Shown piece after piece: positions 1 through 4,530 of a stretch of DNA of 4,530 bases (position 1 is the first letter of the stretch; each line of letters begins with the position of its first letter). The stretch is from a virus (Duplodnaviria > Heunggongvirae > Uroviricota > Caudoviricetes). The DNA lies in IMG/VR virus record IMGVR_UViG_3300023488_000045, positions 1-4,530 of that record. One strand, given 5' to 3'. The notes under the pieces are model-generated. The model had not been told where the DNA came from and searched no databases. It was given only the letters and a program-made list of their open reading frames with translations. A program made the translations under genes and the position numbers.

Positions 1-116
1 GCGTCCAGCGATGTCAGTGCAATCCGTGCAAGTTCCATTTGTTCGCCACGGGTAAGTCCGTTATCAAGCGGATTTTTAATGAATAATTCGATACGTTCTT
101 TGGTTATAGCGCTCAT
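1..116 (-). CDS. hypothetical protein, 5' portion only (gene runs off the window at position 1)
   Basis: ATG at 116..114 on the minus strand, preceded by AAGGAG (128..123) with a 6-nt spacer. Frame is open to position 1, giving MSAITKERIELFIKNPLDNGLTRGEQMELARIALTSLD... Start lies 2 nt past the TGA (120..118) of the upstream gene. Absent from the ORF track because it is truncated. No family recognised. Confidence 0.4.
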   Translation of the reverse strand, partial: MSAITKERIELFIKNPLDNGLTRGEQMELARIALTSLD

Positions 117-117
117 A

Positions 118-609
118 TCACTCTCCTTTGATGCGAATGCCAGTGGCGCGTGGCACATTAACTTCCACGATGCGCACTGTTGGTTTGTACATCTCAATCG
201 CTGTCAGCCAGTCAGCTCCTGTCATGCGCTTTTCCGCATCGCCATTAGTCCACTGAACCGGTACGCCAATAGCCTTCATCGCGATTTCTATTTCCCCGGC
301 AATGGCGCTTTTTCCGCAACCAGTAAAACCAGAAACAACGACAAGAACTTCACCTTTGGCTGGTTTTATTTCCCGTGCTTCCAGTTCTGCAATGCGCTTT
401 TTGTCTGCTTCCCGTTCATCCAGTAGTGCCAGCACGGTTTCTGGTCCGGTCAGAAATTTGAAGGCGTTGAGCGCATCAATATCCACACCGTAATCTTTAA
501 GTTCCTGTTCACTTAACAAATCATCATCAACTGGCAACATTAACAGGCGTTCCATTGCTGGAGTTGCACGTTCTGCCGCATCTCGCAGTGCCTGATAGTC
601 AATTGTCAT
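118..609 (-). CDS. phage accessory protein: N-terminal coiled-coil region (KKRIAELEAREIK) plus C-terminal Walker-A/P-loop kinase-like fragment
   Basis: ORF track 118..618 (-). Preferred start is ATG 609..607, which overlaps the upstream TGA (608..606) as ATGA and has an AAGGA Shine-Dalgarno (622..618) 8 nt upstream; ATG 618 is the alternative. Protein contains a beta-strand-like EVLVVVS followed by GFTGCGKS (GxxxxGKS) and a helix-like AIAGEIEIAMKAIG, then a WTNGD loop. Only about 75 residues follow the P-loop, too few for a complete NTPase. Confidence 0.6.
   Translation of the reverse strand: MTIDYQALRDAAERATPAMERLLMLPVDDDLLSEQELKDYGVDIDALNAFKFLTGPETVLALLDEREADKKRIAELEAREIKPAKGEVLVVVSGFTGCGKSAIAGEIEIAMKAIGVPVQWTNGDAEKRMTGADWLTAIEMYKPTVRIVEVNVPRATGIRIKGE
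380..398 (-). repeat. 19-nt exact dispersed repeat tccagttctgcaatgcgct; second copy at 1542..1560
   Basis: Identical 19-mer in gene 118..609 and in Ea22-like paralog 1. Both encode KRIAELE on the minus strand within coiled-coil segments; flanks diverge. Confidence 0.85.
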
Positions 610-1250
610 TCTCGCCATCCTTCACAGTTGTAATCACTACAGCCTTCAAAATCATATGGGCTGTACTGCCAGGTTATTTTTCCGCAATGCGGACAATTCC
701 AACGCACCTTCCCGCTTCGCGACTTCTTTCTTCTGTTCTGCTCTTTCAACCAGTCAGGCATGACCAAACCTGCGCCCTGAACCATTGTTCTGCGGTTAAA
801 GTTATTGATATTGAACGTCCGGCGCTTTGCTGCATCAGCAATGGAAAATGACAACCAAACTATTCCTGGTTCGTTTTTGTTGACGACGCTAAAGATGGTC
901 GCTTTACTGAAGTCATCTGTTGGCAATCCACCGCGTTGAAGCCAGTAAACATCGTTGCCGTTCCAGCTACCTTTTTTGTAGGCCACATACTCAGTGCAAT
1001 CTGACTCAATCAGGCTTTCTGTAGGGATGTACTGGCAATCAACGTGCCACACAGCCATTGCATCCACACTATCGGCACAAACAGGCTGATCGATATCTCG
1101 CCCACAATTCCAGGCTTTTTGGGCTTCTTCCAGCGTGTAAATATGAGCGCGATCGATATCAGAACTGTAACCATTGCCGTTATGGCAATGGAATGAGGCG
1201 TTATTACCCACAGTTTCACGCAAGCACATCATGTAAAAGCGGTTATTCAC
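606..1250 (-). CDS. hypothetical Cys/Trp/His-rich protein with C-terminal zinc-ribbon-like motif (CPHC-x14-C-x4-C)
   Basis: ORF track 606..1250 (-), 214 aa. GTG start at 1250..1248 overlaps the TGA (1249..1247) of the upstream Ea22-like gene as GTGA. Strong AAGGAGG Shine-Dalgarno (1263..1257) with a 6-nt spacer. C-terminus NCPHCGKITWQYSPYDFEGCSDYNCEGW. Its stop overlaps the downstream start as ATGA. No family recognised from memory. Confidence 0.6.
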   Translation of the reverse strand: MNNRFYMMCLRETVGNNASFHCHNGNGYSSDIDRAHIYTLEEAQKAWNCGRDIDQPVCADSVDAMAVWHVDCQYIPTESLIESDCTEYVAYKKGSWNGNDVYWLQRGGLPTDDFSKATIFSVVNKNEPGIVWLSFSIADAAKRRTFNINNFNRRTMVQGAGLVMPDWLKEQNRRKKSRSGKVRWNCPHCGKITWQYSPYDFEGCSDYNCEGWRE

Positions 1251-1909
1251 TGGTTGCCTCCTTTGCGAAGCTGTTCAGCAATACTTACGCATATCTCTGC
1301 GCCTCTAATCAGCCCCGGAACGTTCTTGTTTGGCCCAACTTCACCATCAACAAAATCAATCATCGCGTTACGAGCCATATCCACCCCCTGCGCACGTACT
1401 TCAGCCAGGAGAGCGTCGGTAGCTGGGGTTTCCGTGAAGTTGTCCTCCCAACCGTAGTACTCCTGACGACAGAAGTTATTAAATTCCTTCTCCGACTGTT
1501 TAAGCGCCGCATTCTCCGCTGCCAGCGCCGTGCGTTCGCTCTCCAGTTCTGCAATGCGCTGTTTTGCGGCATCAAGTTCAATCGATAATTTTTCCAACTG
1601 CTCTTTATGCTTCTTGTATTCCTGATATGCGTGCCAGGACTGACCTTTGCGCACACTATCAGTAATATCAGTAATCTGTTCTGGTGTTAGCGTGGTCAGT
1701 GGCTGTGCTGGGAAAATCAGCACTTTCCCGGAATCCCAATCAAAACCAGCGTGAATTGACTGAACCTCAACTGAGGGTGTTGAACCAATGCTGCCAGGCG
1801 AATGAACAACGATCGTTACATCCATATCGCGACGATGGCTGTGGTTGTTGGACAAAATACGATTCAACAAAATACGATTCACCAACTCAGAAAATTTGGA
1901 GAATTTCAT
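1247..1909 (-). CDS. Ead/Ea22-like family protein (paralog 1)
   Basis: ORF track 1247..1921 (-); the track start is a TTG, and the first ATG is at 1909..1907 with a GAGG Shine-Dalgarno 6 nt upstream. Central coiled coil AKQRIAELESERTALAAENAALKQ and the motif ETPATDALLAEVRAQGV, which I recognise as typical of lambdoid Ead/Ea22-like proteins. C-terminus AEQLRKGGNQ is homologous to paralog 2. Confidence 0.7.
   Translation of the reverse strand: MKFSKFSELVNRILLNRILSNNHSHRRDMDVTIVVHSPGSIGSTPSVEVQSIHAGFDWDSGKVLIFPAQPLTTLTPEQITDITDSVRKGQSWHAYQEYKKHKEQLEKLSIELDAAKQRIAELESERTALAAENAALKQSEKEFNNFCRQEYYGWEDNFTETPATDALLAEVRAQGVDMARNAMIDFVDGEVGPNKNVPGLIRGAEICVSIAEQLRKGGNQ
1257..1263 (-). promoter_or_regulatory. 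Shine-Dalgarno AAGGAGG for the GTG-initiated gene 606..1250, embedded in the last codons of the upstream Ea22-like gene
   Basis: AAGGAGG on the minus strand, 6-nt spacer to GTG 1250. Confidence 0.6.
1259..1280 (-). repeat. conserved junction motif at the 3' end of both Ea22-like genes (second copy 2336..2357, 20/22 identical)
   Basis: ctcctttgcgaagctgttcagc versus ctcctttgcgaatctgttccgc. On the minus strand this encodes AEQ(L/I)RKG and contains the AAAGGAG Shine-Dalgarno serving the GTG start of the downstream gene in both cases (GTGA overlap at 1250 and 2328). Confidence 0.8.
1853..1882 (-). repeat. 15-bp tandem direct repeat x2 (caaaatacgattcaa / caaaatacgattcac) inside the Ea22-like paralog 1 N-terminus
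   Basis: Read directly: 1853..1867 and 1868..1882 are identical except for the last base. In frame (5 codons each), giving NRILL-NRILS in the protein. Confidence 0.8.
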
Positions 1910-1917
1910 GCGGAGCC

Positions 1918-2328
1918 TCAATATGCAAAATAGACCGTTGCCACGCCGTTATAGTGATCAAACGATACGGCGTTTACTTCATAACTGGCCGGGAGCTTCG
2001 AGCCAAGAACGTATCCGGGCCACGTTTTCCATGGAATTTCTCTATTCTCACTACCCCCATATACCGTACATCCAAGTGAACCTACAGCTTCATTAGAACG
2101 CGTGCCGCACGTTATGAATCCCAGATTTTGCTTACTGCTCTTAATGGTGATTGAGTGAACGCTGGCTGATGCATTAGCAGCACGCTGTGCCTGTTGGTTT
2201 GCGATATTCGCAGAGTTCGCAGCAGCTACAGCAGCCGTAGTCGCGGCGGTAGAGGCTACAATAGCTGCTGAAGCATGCACTTGTTGGATATTCACCAACA
2301 ATGCCGCGACAAAAATCATCTTCTTCAC
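1918..2328 (-). CDS. predicted secreted/periplasmic protein with Sec-type signal peptide, Ala/Thr-rich linker and two-Cys C-terminal domain; function unknown
   Basis: ORF track 1918..2328 (-), 136 aa. GTG start 2328..2326 overlaps the upstream TGA (2327..2325) as GTGA; AGGAG Shine-Dalgarno 7 nt upstream; alternative ATG at 2319. N-terminus [22 protein letters not shown] has a basic n-region, hydrophobic core and AXA-like cleavage site (VHA). Mature part is a low-complexity Ala/Thr/Asn stretch followed by a roughly 80-aa domain with two Cys, ending YFAY. Confidence 0.6.
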   Translation of the reverse strand: MKKMIFVAALLVNIQQVHASAAIVASTAATTAAVAAANSANIANQQAQRAANASASVHSITIKSSKQNLGFITCGTRSNEAVGSLGCTVYGGSENREIPWKTWPGYVLGSKLPASYEVNAVSFDHYNGVATVYFAY

Positions 2329-2855
2329 TTGTCAGCTCCTTTGCGAATCTGTTCCGCCCATTCTTCAAGGGATTTCTCCGCATATTCACCGGACAGGCCA
2401 TCAATCGGGTGCGGTTCATTAGCTAACTCTTCTTTCGCTGACAGAATCATGCGTGTAACGTCGAAAACTTCACGTAAAGACTTATTGATAAATCCGTGAT
2501 TGAACGCAGCAGCAAGACGGCTGGCGGTATAGTTAATCCCCTCGTTGCGTGCTTCCGCACGAATTTCAGCAAGGAAAGCATCGGTGGCGGGAGTTTCGCT
2601 GTGGTGCAGGGCATCGTTGATAATCATTGCAGCAACACCAGCCTGCCCTGCATCCGTGACCGACACATGCTCAAGAGTTACGACCATTGCGTGTTTCAGC
2701 CCAGCATTCTCCGCCGCCAGCGCCGCGCACTTGGCCTCCGCTTCAGCAAATTTACGCACCAGATATTCAGCGTTTGTTTCGTTAACCTTTAAATCTCGTG
2801 GGATGCATTTACCTTTCAGAAATCCATCCATCTCAATTAGTGACATTTGTTTCAT
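2325..2855 (-). CDS. Ead/Ea22-like family protein (paralog 2)
   Basis: ORF track 2325..2873 (-), which begins at a GTG. Preferred start is ATG 2855..2853, overlapping the TGA (2854..2852) of the upstream small ORF as ATGA. Contains [11 protein letters not shown] and [16 protein letters not shown], and a C-terminal [10 protein letters not shown]; homologous to paralog 1 at protein and nucleotide level. Confidence 0.7.
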
Positions 2856-3016
2856 TTCTTCCCACTCCGCCACATCGCATTCAGATATTTGTTGTCATTA
2901 ACAGAACCGAAACTCTTTCTCTTAAGCAATTCCTCTCTCGATGGCATTGGCTTTACGCGTTGGCGAATAATCATTTCTGCCGGAAGAATGCCGGGATTGT
3001 ATGCAAGTCCTCTCAT
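2852..3016 (-). CDS. small basic hypothetical protein (54 aa)
   Basis: In-frame part of track ORF 2852..3166 (which begins at a TTG at 3166 and overlaps the 97-aa gene out of frame). ATG 3016..3014 is preceded by TGAGGAA with a 6-nt spacer, and that Shine-Dalgarno overlaps the TGA of the 97-aa gene. Its own stop overlaps the ATG of Ea22-like paralog 2 as ATGA. Product [54 protein letters not shown]. Alternative ATGs at 3049 and 3034 lack a Shine-Dalgarno. Confidence 0.35.
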
Positions 3017-3026
3017 GGTAAATTCC

Positions 3027-3320
3027 TCAGTCATTACTGATAGCGCCATAGCGTGAGCGGTAATTACGCAGGCGCGGGTCAATTTCAGGGAAGTGGGTAT
3101 ATGCGGCTTTGCGGAATGGTCGGATTGATGTCTGGTAAATTCGCTCGCGTTCTTCTTTCTCTGCAAGCCATATACAGTGGCGAAATTCCTTTTCCTCTTT
3201 CGTTTCCTGCGGTAGAGACATTATTCGATCGTAGTTTTTTTTGAATTTATCCAGCACCTCCGATACGGAATTGCCGGAACAGCGGCGCGCGTCATCCGCA
3301 CCATACAGAGGCGCTGGCAT
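3027..3320 (-). CDS. small phage protein (97 aa); tentatively Abc2-like anti-RecBCD protein on position and size only
   Basis: ORF track 3027..3320 (-). ATG 3320..3318 with a TAAGGA Shine-Dalgarno 7 nt upstream. Sits downstream of erf/ssb where P22-like phages carry abc1/abc2, and P22 Abc2 is about 97 aa as I remember it. I cannot verify sequence identity, so the product call is low confidence. Confidence 0.45.
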
Positions 3321-3343
3321 AATTAAATCCTTATTTTTCTAAA

Positions 3344-3727
3344 TCAGAATGGGATGGAATCGTCGTATACAGGAGTGTTCTGCTGGTTACTACTTTGCTG
3401 CTGCGGGCCATTTCCTGAAGCTGCAAATCCAATCTTTGCATTCAGTAATTCAAGAGTGATTGATTGACCATTTTGCCCCTGATAAACATCAACCCTGATG
3501 TTTTCTCCGGTAATTTCCACAATGCCACCTTCAACAAGAACACTACGGTAGTAATCCGCTTGCGCTCCCGGCTTGGCAAATACAACGGCGCTGTAGTTTG
3601 TCCATTCTTTCTTTTTTGTCTGGCGATCGTAATACTGAACGCCAGCACGGATGTTGAATCCGATATTTTCCACGGCCTGAAACTCTCTTGCGGGCTTGTT
3701 TAGTCTTACAGTAATCGAATGTGCCAT
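3344..3727 (-). CDS. ssb: single-stranded DNA-binding protein (phage SSB-like, short form)
   Basis: ORF track 3344..3727 (-), 127 aa. ATG 3727..3725 overlaps the erf TAA (3729..3727) as TAATG; AAGGAG Shine-Dalgarno lies inside the erf 3' end. OB-fold-like core (YSAVVFAKPGAQADYYRSVLVEGGIVEITGENIRVDVYQGQNGQSITLEL), Gly/Gln-rich linker, and acidic-aromatic tip YDDSIPF resembling the canonical SSB DDDIPF tail. Confidence 0.75.
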   Translation of the reverse strand: MAHSITVRLNKPAREFQAVENIGFNIRAGVQYYDRQTKKKEWTNYSAVVFAKPGAQADYYRSVLVEGGIVEITGENIRVDVYQGQNGQSITLELLNAKIGFAASGNGPQQQSSNQQNTPVYDDSIPF

Positions 3728-4332
3728 TAAGCAGCAGCTCCTTCTAATTCGTCTCGTCTGATGTTGTAAACGTCCTGCGCTTTGTGCTGCTCAGGTGTGC
3801 CTTCGAGCATCTTCCACGCTTTGGCGAACGCCTGTTTAAGCTCTTCTACGGTGTTTTTCTGCATTGCTGCGTCAGTGAATGCTTTTAGAACCTGTTCAGG
3901 TGTAGGTGATGGTTTTGATTGCTTTGCTGCTGCGTTCTGCTGATGTTTATGCTCGTCTGTATCTGCATCTTTCGCATCATCAATGCCGAACAAACCATTG
4001 AGGCAATACTTGCGTGCATAAGAGCTTGTAGCTCCCGTAACTTGTGCAGAATCCATTCCTTTCTTGCTTTCTTCCTCTCGTGCAAGAGCGGTTGCCGTAT
4101 GGCTGTTTTCGCCATCGGTAATAGTTGCCGTGGCTTTCACGTAATACCGATCACCAATCAACACAACTTCATCGCTGATTGATAAAAACAGACCATTCAG
4201 TAACGGCTTAACGCCTTCAAGAATATCTTCGCAGCTTCTGTATTTATATTTACCGAATGAGTTGTACTGATTCTTTGGCGCGTTCAGATTCTCCTGAATA
4301 GCTGCCAGTCTTGCGTAAAATTCTTTGCTCAT
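3727..4332 (-). CDS. erf: Erf-family single-strand annealing protein (essential recombination function)
   Basis: ORF track 3727..4362 (-), whose first codon is a TTG. Preferred start is ATG 4332..4330 (MSKEFYARLAAIQENLNAPKNQYNSFGKYKYRSCEDILEGVKPLL...), which I recognise as closely resembling the phage P22 Erf N-terminal domain. About 201 aa. Followed by a translationally coupled ssb. Confidence 0.85.
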   Translation of the reverse strand: MSKEFYARLAAIQENLNAPKNQYNSFGKYKYRSCEDILEGVKPLLNGLFLSISDEVVLIGDRYYVKATATITDGENSHTATALAREEESKKGMDSAQVTGATSSYARKYCLNGLFGIDDAKDADTDEHKHQQNAAAKQSKPSPTPEQVLKAFTDAAMQKNTVEELKQAFAKAWKMLEGTPEQHKAQDVYNIRRDELEGAAA

Positions 4333-4342
4333 ATGATTGTTC

Positions 4343-4513
4343 TCAGAATGGACATGGACCAAGGAAATAACGCTGATTTAATACTTCGGTCTTTGCCGCA
4401 TTTAAAAAGACGCGAACACCTTCACGATCGCCCTTCTGGCGATACATTAACGCCTGCTGCGTGTACATGCGCCTCTGTAACTTGCTCTCCTTCACTGTGG
4501 TTGCAAGTGACAT
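4343..4513 (-). CDS. small protein (56 aa) immediately upstream of erf, at the Arf/Kil position of P22-like phages
   Basis: Not in the ORF track (under 60 aa). ATG 4513..4511 preceded by a perfect AAGGAG (4525..4520) with a 6-nt spacer. Hand translation: MSLATTVKESKLQRRMYTQQALMYRQKGDREGVRVFLNAAKTEVLNQRYFLGPCPF, stop TGA at 4345..4343, 10 nt before the erf ATG. Identity with Arf or Kil not verified. Confidence 0.45.
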   Translation of the reverse strand: MSLATTVKESKLQRRMYTQQALMYRQKGDREGVRVFLNAAKTEVLNQRYFLGPCPF

Positions 4514-4519
4514 GAATAT

Positions 4520-4525
4520 CTCCTT
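4520..4525 (-). promoter_or_regulatory. Shine-Dalgarno AAGGAG for the small ORF 4343..4513
   Basis: Perfect AAGGAG on the minus strand, 6 nt upstream of ATG 4513. Confidence 0.6.
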
Positions 4526-4530
4526 CGTTA

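What the first reader, a model, noticed from the sequence alone, without database searches (positions are those of the whole stretch)
1918..2328. Sec-signal-peptide protein embedded in the phage early-left operon: candidate periplasmic superinfection-exclusion or lysogenic-conversion factor
A secreted protein is unusual inside an operon otherwise devoted to cytoplasmic recombination and accessory proteins. It has a signal peptide ([19 protein letters not shown]), then an Ala/Thr/Asn-rich low-complexity linker, then a compact two-Cys domain consistent with a disulfide-stabilised periplasmic fold. Prophage-encoded periplasmic or envelope proteins commonly block DNA entry of competing phages or modify the cell surface. 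I do not recognise the C-terminal domain as a known family.
Basis: partly seen in the sequence, partly recalled or inferred. Interest (0 to 1): 0.6.

Follow-up and report, generated by a model that had tools for sequence, protein, structure and literature searches.

The report
Orphan exported early phage protein
This is a real gene for a small protein that the phage sends into the bacterial periplasm early in infection; it belongs to a small, uncharacterised family with no recognisable fold, shared by several unrelated groups of enterobacterial phages, and its function, possibly blocking rival phages at the cell envelope, is untested.

Summary
ORF 1918..2328 (minus strand, 136 aa, GTG start) is a real gene in a lambdoid pL early-left operon. 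Its start overlaps the stop of the upstream Ea22-like gene. It is under purifying selection (dN/dS 0.26 overall, 0.10 on the domain frame).

It encodes a Sec-type signal peptide, an Ala/Thr/Asn-rich linker of variable length, and a ~70-aa α/β domain with two invariant cysteines.

It matches phrog_8805 (unknown function) and nothing in Pfam, NCBIfam or PADLOC. An exhaustive profile search of 1.84 billion proteins found about ten real clusters. All are in Enterobacterales phages: lambdoid prophages, P1-like phage-plasmids, Mu-like phages, a virulent Vequintavirinae phage and ~45-kb lytic phages. All representatives examined carry signal peptides.

Export is well supported. The function is inferred only. 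Placement in early lytic operons and presence in virulent phages argue against lysogenic conversion. They favour a periplasmic role during lytic growth: envelope-level exclusion of rival phages, or modulation of a host envelope target. Interest is modest.

The parts
1918..2328 (-). Target gene, 136 codons plus TGA stop (1918-1920). Member of phrog_8805.
   Evidence: ORF list and translation. Full-length PHROG match, E=7.3e-86. dN/dS 0.26 over 29 alleles.
2336..2341 (-). Ribosome-binding site AAGGAG, 7 nt before the GTG start. It lies inside the last codons (K-G-A) of the upstream Ea22-like gene.
   Evidence: Upstream sequence read. The same junction is present in 35 of 45 IMG/VR loci.
2325..2328 (-). 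GTGA overlap of the target's start codon with the upstream gene's stop codon, indicating translational coupling.
2272..2328 (-). Signal peptide, residues 1-19 ([19 protein letters not shown]). Predicted signal peptidase I cut after VHA.
   Evidence: Rule-based n/h/c analysis. 32 of 32 family representatives pass against about 1% background. A depositor annotated a signal peptide on the KLB16 homolog. One UniRef name is 'Prophage exported protein'.
2134..2271 (-). Low-complexity Ala/Thr/Asn/Gln-rich linker, residues 20-65. Length and composition vary between subfamilies.
   Evidence: Composition. Alignments and length variants P0115-P0118. dN/dS 0.41. Low AF2 confidence.
1921..2133 (-). Conserved globular domain, residues 66-136. 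Predicted strands at 69-74, 80-82, 86-91 and 94-99, a helix at 103-111, then strands at 117-124 and 129-135.
   Evidence: AF2 domain model with pLDDT 87.7 and pTM 0.75. Conservation profile. dN/dS 0.14 for the domain and 0.10 for the frame.
2068..2109 (-). Cys74 (2107-2109, TGC) to Cys87 (2068-2070, TGT), the presumed disulfide-closed loop. The flanks TCG and SLGC are conserved and the tip (residues 76-83) is variable.
   Evidence: Codons read directly from the sequence. Both Cys invariant in 38 sequences, with column entropy 1.2-3.0 bits at 76-83 against about 0 at the flanks. The disulfide itself is inferred.
2325..2873 (-). Upstream Ea22-like gene (phrog_614). Its conserved C-terminus ...[10 protein letters not shown] supplies the junction and the RBS for the target.
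1247..1909 (-). Downstream gene. The probable ATG start at 1909 gives MKFSKFSELVN..., 8 nt after the target's stop. It has a phrog_6026 N-terminal domain plus an Ea22-like coiled-coil/C-terminal part. It travels with the target between lambdoid prophages and the lytic phage Av-05.
   Evidence: 58% identity of the N-terminal domain to Av05_00114.

Best explanation
The gene encodes a small exported phage accessory protein. It is transcribed as part of the pL early-left operon and translated by coupling to the upstream Ea22-like gene. A Sec-type signal peptide takes it across the inner membrane and is probably removed after VHA(19). This releases a mature protein of about 12 kDa into the periplasm. 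That protein consists of a flexible Ala/Thr/Asn-rich spacer and a ~70-residue α/β domain, presumably locked by a Cys74-Cys87 disulfide. The disulfide closes a loop with a variable tip.

Because the gene sits in early lytic operons and also occurs in strictly virulent phages, the protein most likely acts in the envelope of the infected or induced cell, not in the lysogen. My preferred mechanism is that the domain binds an envelope or incoming-phage component through its two variable loops, making the infected cell refractory to secondary attack. The logic is the same as for T4 Spackle or T5 Llp, but the family and fold are unrelated.

Shown: the gene is real, signal-peptide features are conserved, the domain is conserved, the fold is orphan, the context is early-operon, and the family spans several phage lineages. 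Inferred: cleavage, disulfide formation, periplasmic solubility, and the whole exclusion function. I put export at about 0.85 and the exclusion mechanism at about 0.3.
For: Gene reality: RBS plus GTGA overlap; purifying selection; full-length phrog_8805 match.

Export: n/h/c signal-peptide features are kept in 32 of 32 diverged representatives although the sequences themselves differ, against about 1% background. There are independent database annotations of a signal peptide or exported protein.

Periplasmic-type domain: two invariant Cys and a confident compact model.

Early lytic expression: the position lies between abc2/DUF2737 and Ea22-like genes of the pL operon. [quoted passage not shown] Homologs sit in the Mu-like early region between Gp11-like and GemA, in a rightward early region after the replication genes in the VR50 prophage, and in virulent phages.

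Accessory single-gene cassette: the neighbours differ between lineages, and a related prophage fills the slot with other genes.

Precedent: the early periplasmic exclusion proteins Spackle (PMC7677548) and Llp (PMC9586334), each small and with one disulfide.

Binding loops: the two variable segments evolve 2-3 times faster than the frame.
Against: There is no direct evidence for any function. PADLOC gives no match, and the only annotated PHROG hit is a weak low-complexity match to a tail fiber family.

The fold is unlike Spackle's helical bundle, and the protein is not a lipoprotein like Llp or Cor.

The family is shared by phages with unrelated virions and presumably unrelated receptors (lambdoid, P1-like, Mu-like, Vequintavirinae, ~45-kb phages). 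That is awkward for a receptor-specific or tail-specific exclusion factor and fits a conserved host target better.

The domain frame is strongly conserved (dN/dS 0.07-0.10) and the loops show no positive selection (dN/dS 0.16-0.31). That is not the signature expected of an arms race with other phages.

SignalP could not be run. Cleavage versus membrane anchoring is unresolved.
Confidence: 0.35

Rival explanations
1. Host-directed periplasmic effector. The exported domain binds and inhibits, or re-tunes, a conserved Enterobacterales envelope component such as a periplasmic protease, a peptidoglycan hydrolase, a nuclease or an envelope-stress sensor. This would improve phage yield or protect the infected cell, and would not act on other phages.
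For: The family occurs in at least five unrelated phage lineages that share only their host order. The exhaustive search found no real member outside Enterobacterales phage or prophage contexts. Strong purifying selection on the domain frame, and no positive selection in the loops, suit a slowly evolving host target. A disulfide-closed β-hairpin loop is how β-sheet periplasmic lysozyme inhibitors (Ivy, MliC/PliC, PliG, PliI) engage their targets, as summarised in PMC7677548.
Confidence: 0.3
2. One reading: a factor made by the lysogen, either lysogenic conversion of the surface or exclusion of superinfecting phages by the prophage-carrying cell.
For: Prophage-encoded envelope proteins often do this (general knowledge; Cor and Llp examples in PMC9586334). 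Most copies of this subfamily are in prophages and P1-like phage-plasmids. An internal promoter missed by a simple consensus scan cannot be excluded.
Against: The start codon overlaps the upstream gene's stop, and no promoter-like site was found on the coding strand in 4.5 kb. The gene lies in the pL operon, which the prophage repressor silences (established lambda biology; layout). In that related prophage the classical lysogen-expressed exclusion gene sieB sits elsewhere, next to N on the opposite strand. Homologs are present in virulent phages. In no context examined is it a late-region moron with its own promoter and terminator.
Confidence: 0.08
3. Lysis-timing regulator. The protein would be a periplasmic sensor or antiholin-like protein, analogous in logic to T4 RI, that modulates holin, endolysin or spanin action from the periplasmic side.
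For: It is an early-expressed small periplasmic protein. Its weakly hydrophobic Ala/Thr/Ser-rich segment after the signal peptide recalls signal-anchor-release sequences (a resemblance from my own knowledge, not tested). It is present in both temperate and virulent phages.
Against: It is not adjacent to lysis genes in any context examined. The Ala-rich segment is missing in the 45-kb phage and Mu-like subfamilies. The phages carrying it presumably have unrelated lysis cassettes (not examined here), so a shared regulator seems unlikely.
Confidence: 0.07
4. Topological variant: the N-terminal hydrophobic segment is not cleaved and instead anchors the protein in the inner membrane. The Ala-rich linker would then act as a stalk holding the domain in the periplasm. 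This is compatible with any of the functions above.
For: The residues just after the predicted cut are conserved and hydrophobic (VVI, AIVAS). The full-length AF2 model draws one long helix over residues 5-53, at low confidence. The KLB16 depositors noted both a transmembrane domain and a signal peptide.
Against: The window protein's h-region is only 9 residues and is followed by polar NIQQ. Family h-regions are 9-18 residues, and every representative has a small-residue -3/-1 site at position 18-24. This is typical of cleaved signal peptides, not anchors.
Confidence: 0.15

Closest known systems
T4 Spackle (Sp), periplasmic superinfection-exclusion protein
   Same: Small phage early-gene product. 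A cleaved periplasmic localisation signal gives a mature protein of about 75 residues. It has a single disulfide and acts alone in the periplasm (PMC7677548). The size, compartment, timing and single-gene logic match what is inferred here.
T5 Llp / T1-phi80 Cor exclusion lipoproteins
   Same: Small exported phage proteins with an intramolecular disulfide. Llp is made early and acts from the periplasmic side of the envelope by jamming FhuA (PMC9586334).
   Different: Llp and Cor are lipoproteins with a lipobox cysteine. The present family has an AxA-type signal peptidase I site and no lipobox cysteine: the window protein's only cysteines are C74 and C87. There is no sequence or PHROG relation. 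Llp and Cor track phages that use FhuA, whereas this family spans unrelated phage types.
phrog_8805 (PHROGs v4, unknown function)
   Same: Full-length match, 136 of 136 profile positions, E=7.3e-86. This is the family the gene belongs to.
   Different: The PHROG entry carries no annotation. The signal peptide, the domain model, the wider family (the 134-aa P1-like, Mu-like and 45-kb phage subfamilies) and its distribution were worked out here.
DUF1471 / YdgH-BhsA-McbA periplasmic domains (PF07338)
   Different: No member matches PF07338. The hhalign probability is 1%. The N-terminal Cys-hairpin half has no counterpart in DUF1471. I do not treat these as homologous.
β-sheet periplasmic lysozyme inhibitors (Ivy, MliC/PliC, PliG, PliI)
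   Same: Small, exported, mainly β proteins that insert a loop between antiparallel strands into the target's active site (as summarised in PMC7677548). The Cys74-Cys87 loop could in principle work this way.

Membership tests
Sec-type (signal peptidase I) secretory signal peptide | Positively charged n-region, uncharged hydrophobic h-region of about 7-15 residues, and a c-region with small residues at -3 and -1 | tested here: met
   Window protein: MKK (+2), MIFVAALLV (9 aa, KD 3.2), V-H-A then S. 32 of 32 family representatives pass the same explicit rule, against about 1% of control ORFs. This is a home-made rule, not SignalP.
Sec-type (signal peptidase I) secretory signal peptide | Actual translocation and cleavage in vivo | not testable with these tools
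   This needs a PhoA or β-lactamase fusion, fractionation, or N-terminal mass spectrometry.
Phage exclusion lipoproteins (Llp/Cor) | Lipobox with an invariant Cys at +1 of the mature protein | tested here: not met
   The window protein has no Cys in its first 73 residues. The family's cleavage motifs are AxA-type. One Mu-like member has VQSC, which is not conserved in the family.
Phage exclusion lipoproteins (Llp/Cor) | Sequence similarity to Llp/Cor families | tested here: not met
   The only significant PHROG hit is phrog_8805, of unknown function. No Pfam or NCBIfam hit.
T4 Spackle | Compact α-helical bundle fold that binds gp5 lysozyme | tested here: not met
T4 Spackle | Early expression, periplasmic location, one disulfide | tested here: inconclusive
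   The early-operon position, signal peptide and two invariant Cys are consistent with this, but all three are inferred and not measured.
DUF1471 / YdgH_BhsA-like (PF07338) | Match to the Pfam profile, or profile-profile homology | tested here: not met
Known anti-phage defence proteins (PADLOC-DB v2) | Match to any defence-system profile | tested here: not met
   0 families at E<=0.1.
OMP-like C-terminal β-signal / DegS-activating YxF-COOH tail | Aromatic residue, typically Phe, at the very C-terminus, so that the free carboxylate position is conserved | tested here: not met
   The family ends in YF-x-Y, but several members carry C-terminal extensions (YFTYTEKK, YFTYTERRQ, YFEYR, YFEYW). In the model this strand is part of the folded sheet.
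phrog_8805 | Full-length profile match | tested here: met
   E=7.3e-86, residues 1-136 on profile positions 1-136.

The most novel reading that the evidence does not exclude
The domain is a new periplasmic effector fold that very different enterobacterial phages (temperate lambdoid, P1-like and Mu-like; virulent Vequintavirinae and ~45-kb phages) have exchanged as a single-gene cassette. On this reading they share it because it hits one conserved host envelope target. Examples would be neutralising a periplasmic defence, protease or hydrolase, or blocking a generic step of DNA entry. It would then be a broadly useful, previously unrecognised envelope-level takeover or exclusion module.
Probability: 0.25. 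Interest if true: 0.6.

Novelty: new variant of a known kind. Interest (0 to 1): 0.35.

Why it matters
Phage proteins that work in the periplasm are few and mechanistically informative. Spackle, Llp/Cor, Sim and RI each revealed a vulnerable step of infection or lysis. This family is small, has no detectable relatives by sequence or fold, and crosses the temperate/virulent divide, so a single conserved activity is likely. Identifying its target would add one more envelope-level phage strategy and could explain some prophage- or phage-plasmid-dependent differences in phage susceptibility in E. coli and Salmonella. It matters only modestly until a phenotype is shown, because uncharacterised small exported phage proteins are common.

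Tried and rejected
1. Pfam, NCBIfam and PADLOC scans of the protein gave nothing. Neither did a lax Pfam scan (E<=10) of 27 family members.

2. A profile search of PDB sequences gave only chance hits with E>=0.34.

3. The full-length AF2 model was too poor to use (pLDDT 55.7). The domain-only model was good.

6. I considered the idea that the YF-x-Y C-terminus mimics an outer-membrane-protein β-signal or DegS ligand. I rejected it because of the C-terminal extensions in some members and because the strand is buried in the model.

7. Diversifying selection on the variable loops was not supported (dN/dS 0.16-0.31).

8. The long repeat proteins in the exhaustive search (P0077, P0078, P0081, P0084, P0085) were set aside as spurious; P0077, the one read, shares only a short 'NIGFIKCGSKESVG' motif.

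9. Literature searches for the PHROG id, for 'prophage exported protein' and for periplasmic exclusion factors found no paper on this family.

10. The species-representative genome scan gave a single locus on a short MAG contig. Two earlier attempts failed for lack of a conserved enough pattern.

11. Rfam found no RNA family in the window.

Full report
**Observation**

The window has an ORF at 1918..2328 on the minus strand encoding 136 residues. Its GTG start is preceded by AAGGAG at a 7-nt spacing. The GTG overlaps the TGA stop of the upstream Ea22-like ORF as GTGA, so the gene is translationally coupled to its neighbour. The product reads [19 protein letters not shown], then SAAIVASTAATTAAVAAANSANIANQQAQRAANASAS, then a C-terminal part containing the only two cysteines, C74 and C87.

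**Is it a real gene?**

The protein matches phrog_8805 over its full length (E=7.3e-86, function unknown). I compared 29 distinct 408-nt alleles recovered from IMG/VR contigs plus the window. Nei-Gojobori dN/dS is:

| Region | dN/dS |
|---|---|
| Whole gene | 0.26 |
| Signal peptide | 0.51 |
| Linker | 0.41 |
| Domain | 0.14 |
| Domain frame (outside the two variable segments) | 0.10 |

The reading frame is under purifying selection, strongest on the C-terminal domain. Some copies in databases are frameshifted or truncated (P0050, P0051, P0054, P0079, P0080, P0120), as expected for a dispensable prophage gene.

**Context**

All recognisable genes in the window run on the minus strand, in this order:

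- an Arf-like small protein (phrog_1723), 4343-4513
- Erf, 3727-4362
- an SSB-like protein, 3344-3727
- Abc2, 3027-3320
- DUF2737
- an Ea22-like protein, 2325-2873
- the target
- a second Ea22-like protein with a phrog_6026 N-terminal domain, 1247-1921
- phrog_2457, 606-1250
- an Ead/Ea22 protein, 118-618

A related E. coli prophage shows the full layout on one strand: cI, N, cIII, kil, erf, ssb-like, abc2, DUF2737, variable genes, Ea22, Eag, TorI/xis. There sieB sits by N on the opposite strand. This is the pL early-left operon. In that relative, the slot that holds the target here contains an HNH endonuclease and other ORFs. No complete E. coli genome has the window's exact arrangement (best coverage 65%). 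The consensus scan found no promoter-like site on the minus strand of the window and no terminator near the gene. Genes of the lambda exo-xis region are driven by pL and expressed within minutes of infection (PMC10834534). It is established lambda biology that the prophage repressor silences pL.

**The family and where it lives**

The word-indexed searches and one exhaustive HMMER profile search of 1.84 billion representatives show a small family. Only 18 representatives reach E<=0.001. About ten are real clusters. The rest are long repeat proteins or fragments. None of the precomputed annotations shows a Pfam domain. Members occur in:

- lambdoid prophages, in the pL operon (the window)
- the VR50 prophage, in the rightward early region after the replication genes, where the target gene and its immediate flanks (a 551-nt query) are 100% identical
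- non-mobilizable plasmids of about 90-100 kb carrying phd/doc, humD and hot, that is P1-like phage-plasmids; these carry both the 136-aa form and an abundant 134-aa subfamily
- Mu-like transposable phages, between a Gp11-like gene and GemA in the early region
- the virulent Vequintavirinae phage Av-05, at 71% identity
- unclassified lytic phages of about 45 kb infecting E. coli and Klebsiella, where the gene follows a C5-cytosine methylase in a block of small ORFs upstream of the terminase

About 1% of complete E. coli genomes carry the 136-aa form (55 of 5426 at 80% coverage or more). A scan of species-representative genomes found a single short MAG contig. Neighbouring genes differ between lineages, so the gene behaves as a single-gene accessory cassette. 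The one exception is that the target and the N-terminal domain of the downstream gene occur together in both lambdoid prophages and Av-05 (71% and 58% identity).

**Architecture**

Three parts can be distinguished.

1. Signal peptide. The N-terminal sequences have diverged almost completely between subfamilies, for example [57 protein letters not shown] and MAKFQRNIIFLAMLSACHLSHA. Even so, every one of 32 representatives keeps a net positive n-region, an uncharged h-region of 9-18 residues, and a small-residue -3/-1 site at positions 18-24. The same rule passes only about 1% of other ORFs in seven flanking loci. The KLB16 depositors annotated a signal peptide on their homolog, and one UniRef name is 'Prophage exported protein'. 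There is no lipobox.

2. Linker. It is Ala/Thr/Asn/Gln-rich in the lambdoid, P1-like and some other subfamilies. Its length varies through Ala/Thr expansions, giving 141-152-aa variants. In the 45-kb phage and Mu-like subfamilies it is short and not Ala-rich. It evolves under relaxed constraint and is modelled with low confidence.

3. Domain, residues 66-136. The conserved frame is G70-F-[IV]-T-C74-G75, S84-L-G-C87, I98-P-[WY], P104-G-Y-x-L-G, L-P-A-S-Y116, D124, and T131-[VI]-Y-F-x-Y136. It encloses two variable segments, 76-83 (inside the Cys-Cys loop) and 88-97. These segments evolve 2-3 times faster than the frame, but dN/dS stays at 0.16-0.31, so there is no sign of positive selection.

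**Structure**

The full-length AF2 model was poor (pLDDT 55.7). The domain-only run on a 38-sequence alignment was confident (pLDDT 87.7, pTM 0.75). It gives strands at 69-74, 80-82, 86-91 and 94-99, a helix at 103-111, and strands at 117-124 and 129-135. C74 ends the first strand and C87 begins the third, which is the geometry expected for a disulfide at the base of a hairpin-like loop.

- Foldseek against the PDB gave a best E of 0.19.
- BFVD returned only the family's own KW1E-type member.
- The AlphaFold database library was not available.
- A profile search of PDB sequences also found nothing.

Within these limits the domain is an orphan fold.

**Known families tested**

- Llp/Cor: no lipobox and no sequence relation.
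- Spackle: a helical bundle (PMC7677548), whereas this domain is mostly β.
- β-sheet lysozyme inhibitors: no fold or Pfam match.
- PADLOC: no match.
- OMP β-signal or DegS-ligand mimicry by the YF-x-Y terminus is unlikely, because some members carry C-terminal extensions.

**How it most likely works**

What is shown. The gene is real and selected. It carries conserved signal-peptide features. It has a conserved compact two-Cys domain. It sits in early lytic operons or early accessory regions in every context I could interpret. It is shared by temperate and strictly virulent phages.

What is inferred. The protein is exported by Sec, cleaved around residue 19, oxidised by the Dsb system, and acts in the periplasm of the infected or induced cell.

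This argues against lysogenic conversion or lysogen-expressed exclusion (about 0.08). Two functional readings remain close.

- Exclusion or protection at the envelope during lytic growth, in the manner of Spackle or Llp (about 0.3). This fits the timing, compartment, size and single-gene logic. It is hard to square with the spread across phages that have unrelated virions, and with the absence of arms-race signatures.
- Binding of a conserved host envelope component (about 0.3). This explains the cross-lineage sharing and the strong conservation, but there is no candidate target.

A lysis-timing role (about 0.07) and an uncleaved membrane-anchored topology (about 0.15, compatible with any function) cannot be excluded.

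**Novelty and verdict**

The family is catalogued only as hypothetical (phrog_8805). No paper in the searchable library mentions it. It is best described as a new variant of a known kind: a phage-encoded exported accessory protein with an unrelated sequence and fold. Export and the orphan domain hold up, exclusion is possible, and lysogenic conversion is unlikely. Interest is modest (0.35). It would rise if a phenotype or target were found, because one conserved activity shared by five phage lineages would be informative.

Noticed in passing
window 2325-2345 and 1247-1270; loci L012-L058: The conserved C-termini of ead/Ea22-like proteins (...[10 protein letters not shown]...AEQLRKGGNQ*) contain the RBS for the next gene, and the stop overlaps that gene's GTG start as GTGA. 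In 35 of 45 IMG/VR loci the target has this upstream junction (exact or a one-residue variant), although the body of the upstream Ea22-like gene varies from 123 to 254 aa. The downstream gene usually starts MKFSKFSELVNRI. These fixed junctions look like homologous-recombination linkers for cassette swapping. A second arrangement has a small upstream ORF ending ...NRWKNHGM* and a 12-nt spacer.
   Followed up: partly
window 1247-1909 (-) and L002:5420-5950: The N-terminal ~115 residues of the downstream gene (phrog_6026 domain) are 58% identical to Av05_00114 of the virulent phage Av-05. There it also directly follows the target's homolog, so a two-gene block is shared between lambdoid prophages and a Vequintavirinae phage. 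The pairing is absent in the P1-like 134-aa, Mu-like and 45-kb phage subfamilies.
   Followed up: partly
window 3344-3727 (-): The SSB-like protein (phrog_44) ends in ...PVYDDSIPF. This resembles the acidic DDDIPF tail by which E. coli SSB recruits partner proteins (the tail sequence is from my own knowledge). It has no Pfam hit at E<=0.01.
   Followed up: no
window 606-1250 (-): phrog_2457 protein, 214 aa and Cys-rich, with a C-terminal CPHCG...C..YNC motif. It gives only weak zinc-ribbon-type NCBIfam hits (E about 0.03). Function unknown.
   Followed up: no
window 2852-3166 (-): The mechanical ORF of 104 aa overlaps abc2, but the DUF2737 match covers only residues 51-102. The real start is probably the ATG at 3016 (MRGLAYNPG...), giving the 54-aa protein annotated in related prophages.
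   Followed up: partly
window 1-4530: No complete E. coli genome (5426 searched) and no phage record carries this exact gene order. The best coverage is 65% in genomes and 63% in phages, showing extreme mosaicism of the region between abc2 and xis.
   Followed up: partly
window 79-426 (+): An antisense ORF (115 aa, MNNSIRSLVIALISLSFDANASG...) also passes the simple signal-peptide rule. It lies opposite the Ead/Ea22 gene and is most likely spurious, which is a reminder of the rule's roughly 1% false-positive rate.
   Followed up: no
P0080; L059 and L060 (3001-3084); Cronobacter plasmids H79, H80: Truncated relatives exist. One is a 92-aa form that lacks the Cys hairpin but keeps the signal peptide, linker and last two strands. 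The others are matches to only the last 28 residues on contigs of 49-103 kb and plasmids of about 100 kb. They may be decayed copies or a shorter variant.
   Followed up: no
L061 (1746-2153): The only hit in the species-representative genome set is a 3.2-kb contig of a MAG labelled 'Actinomycetes bacterium', with 88% identity to this E. coli phage gene. This is probably a mis-binned or contaminating phage contig.
   Followed up: no
family alignment A2/A4 (residues 20-24 and 49-54 of the window protein): Most members keep a short hydrophobic stretch right after the predicted cleavage site (VVIT, AVIV, AIVAS, VVVA, NVII). They also keep a small A-x-N-A-[SQP] motif just before the globular domain. 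Neither is explained.
   Followed up: no
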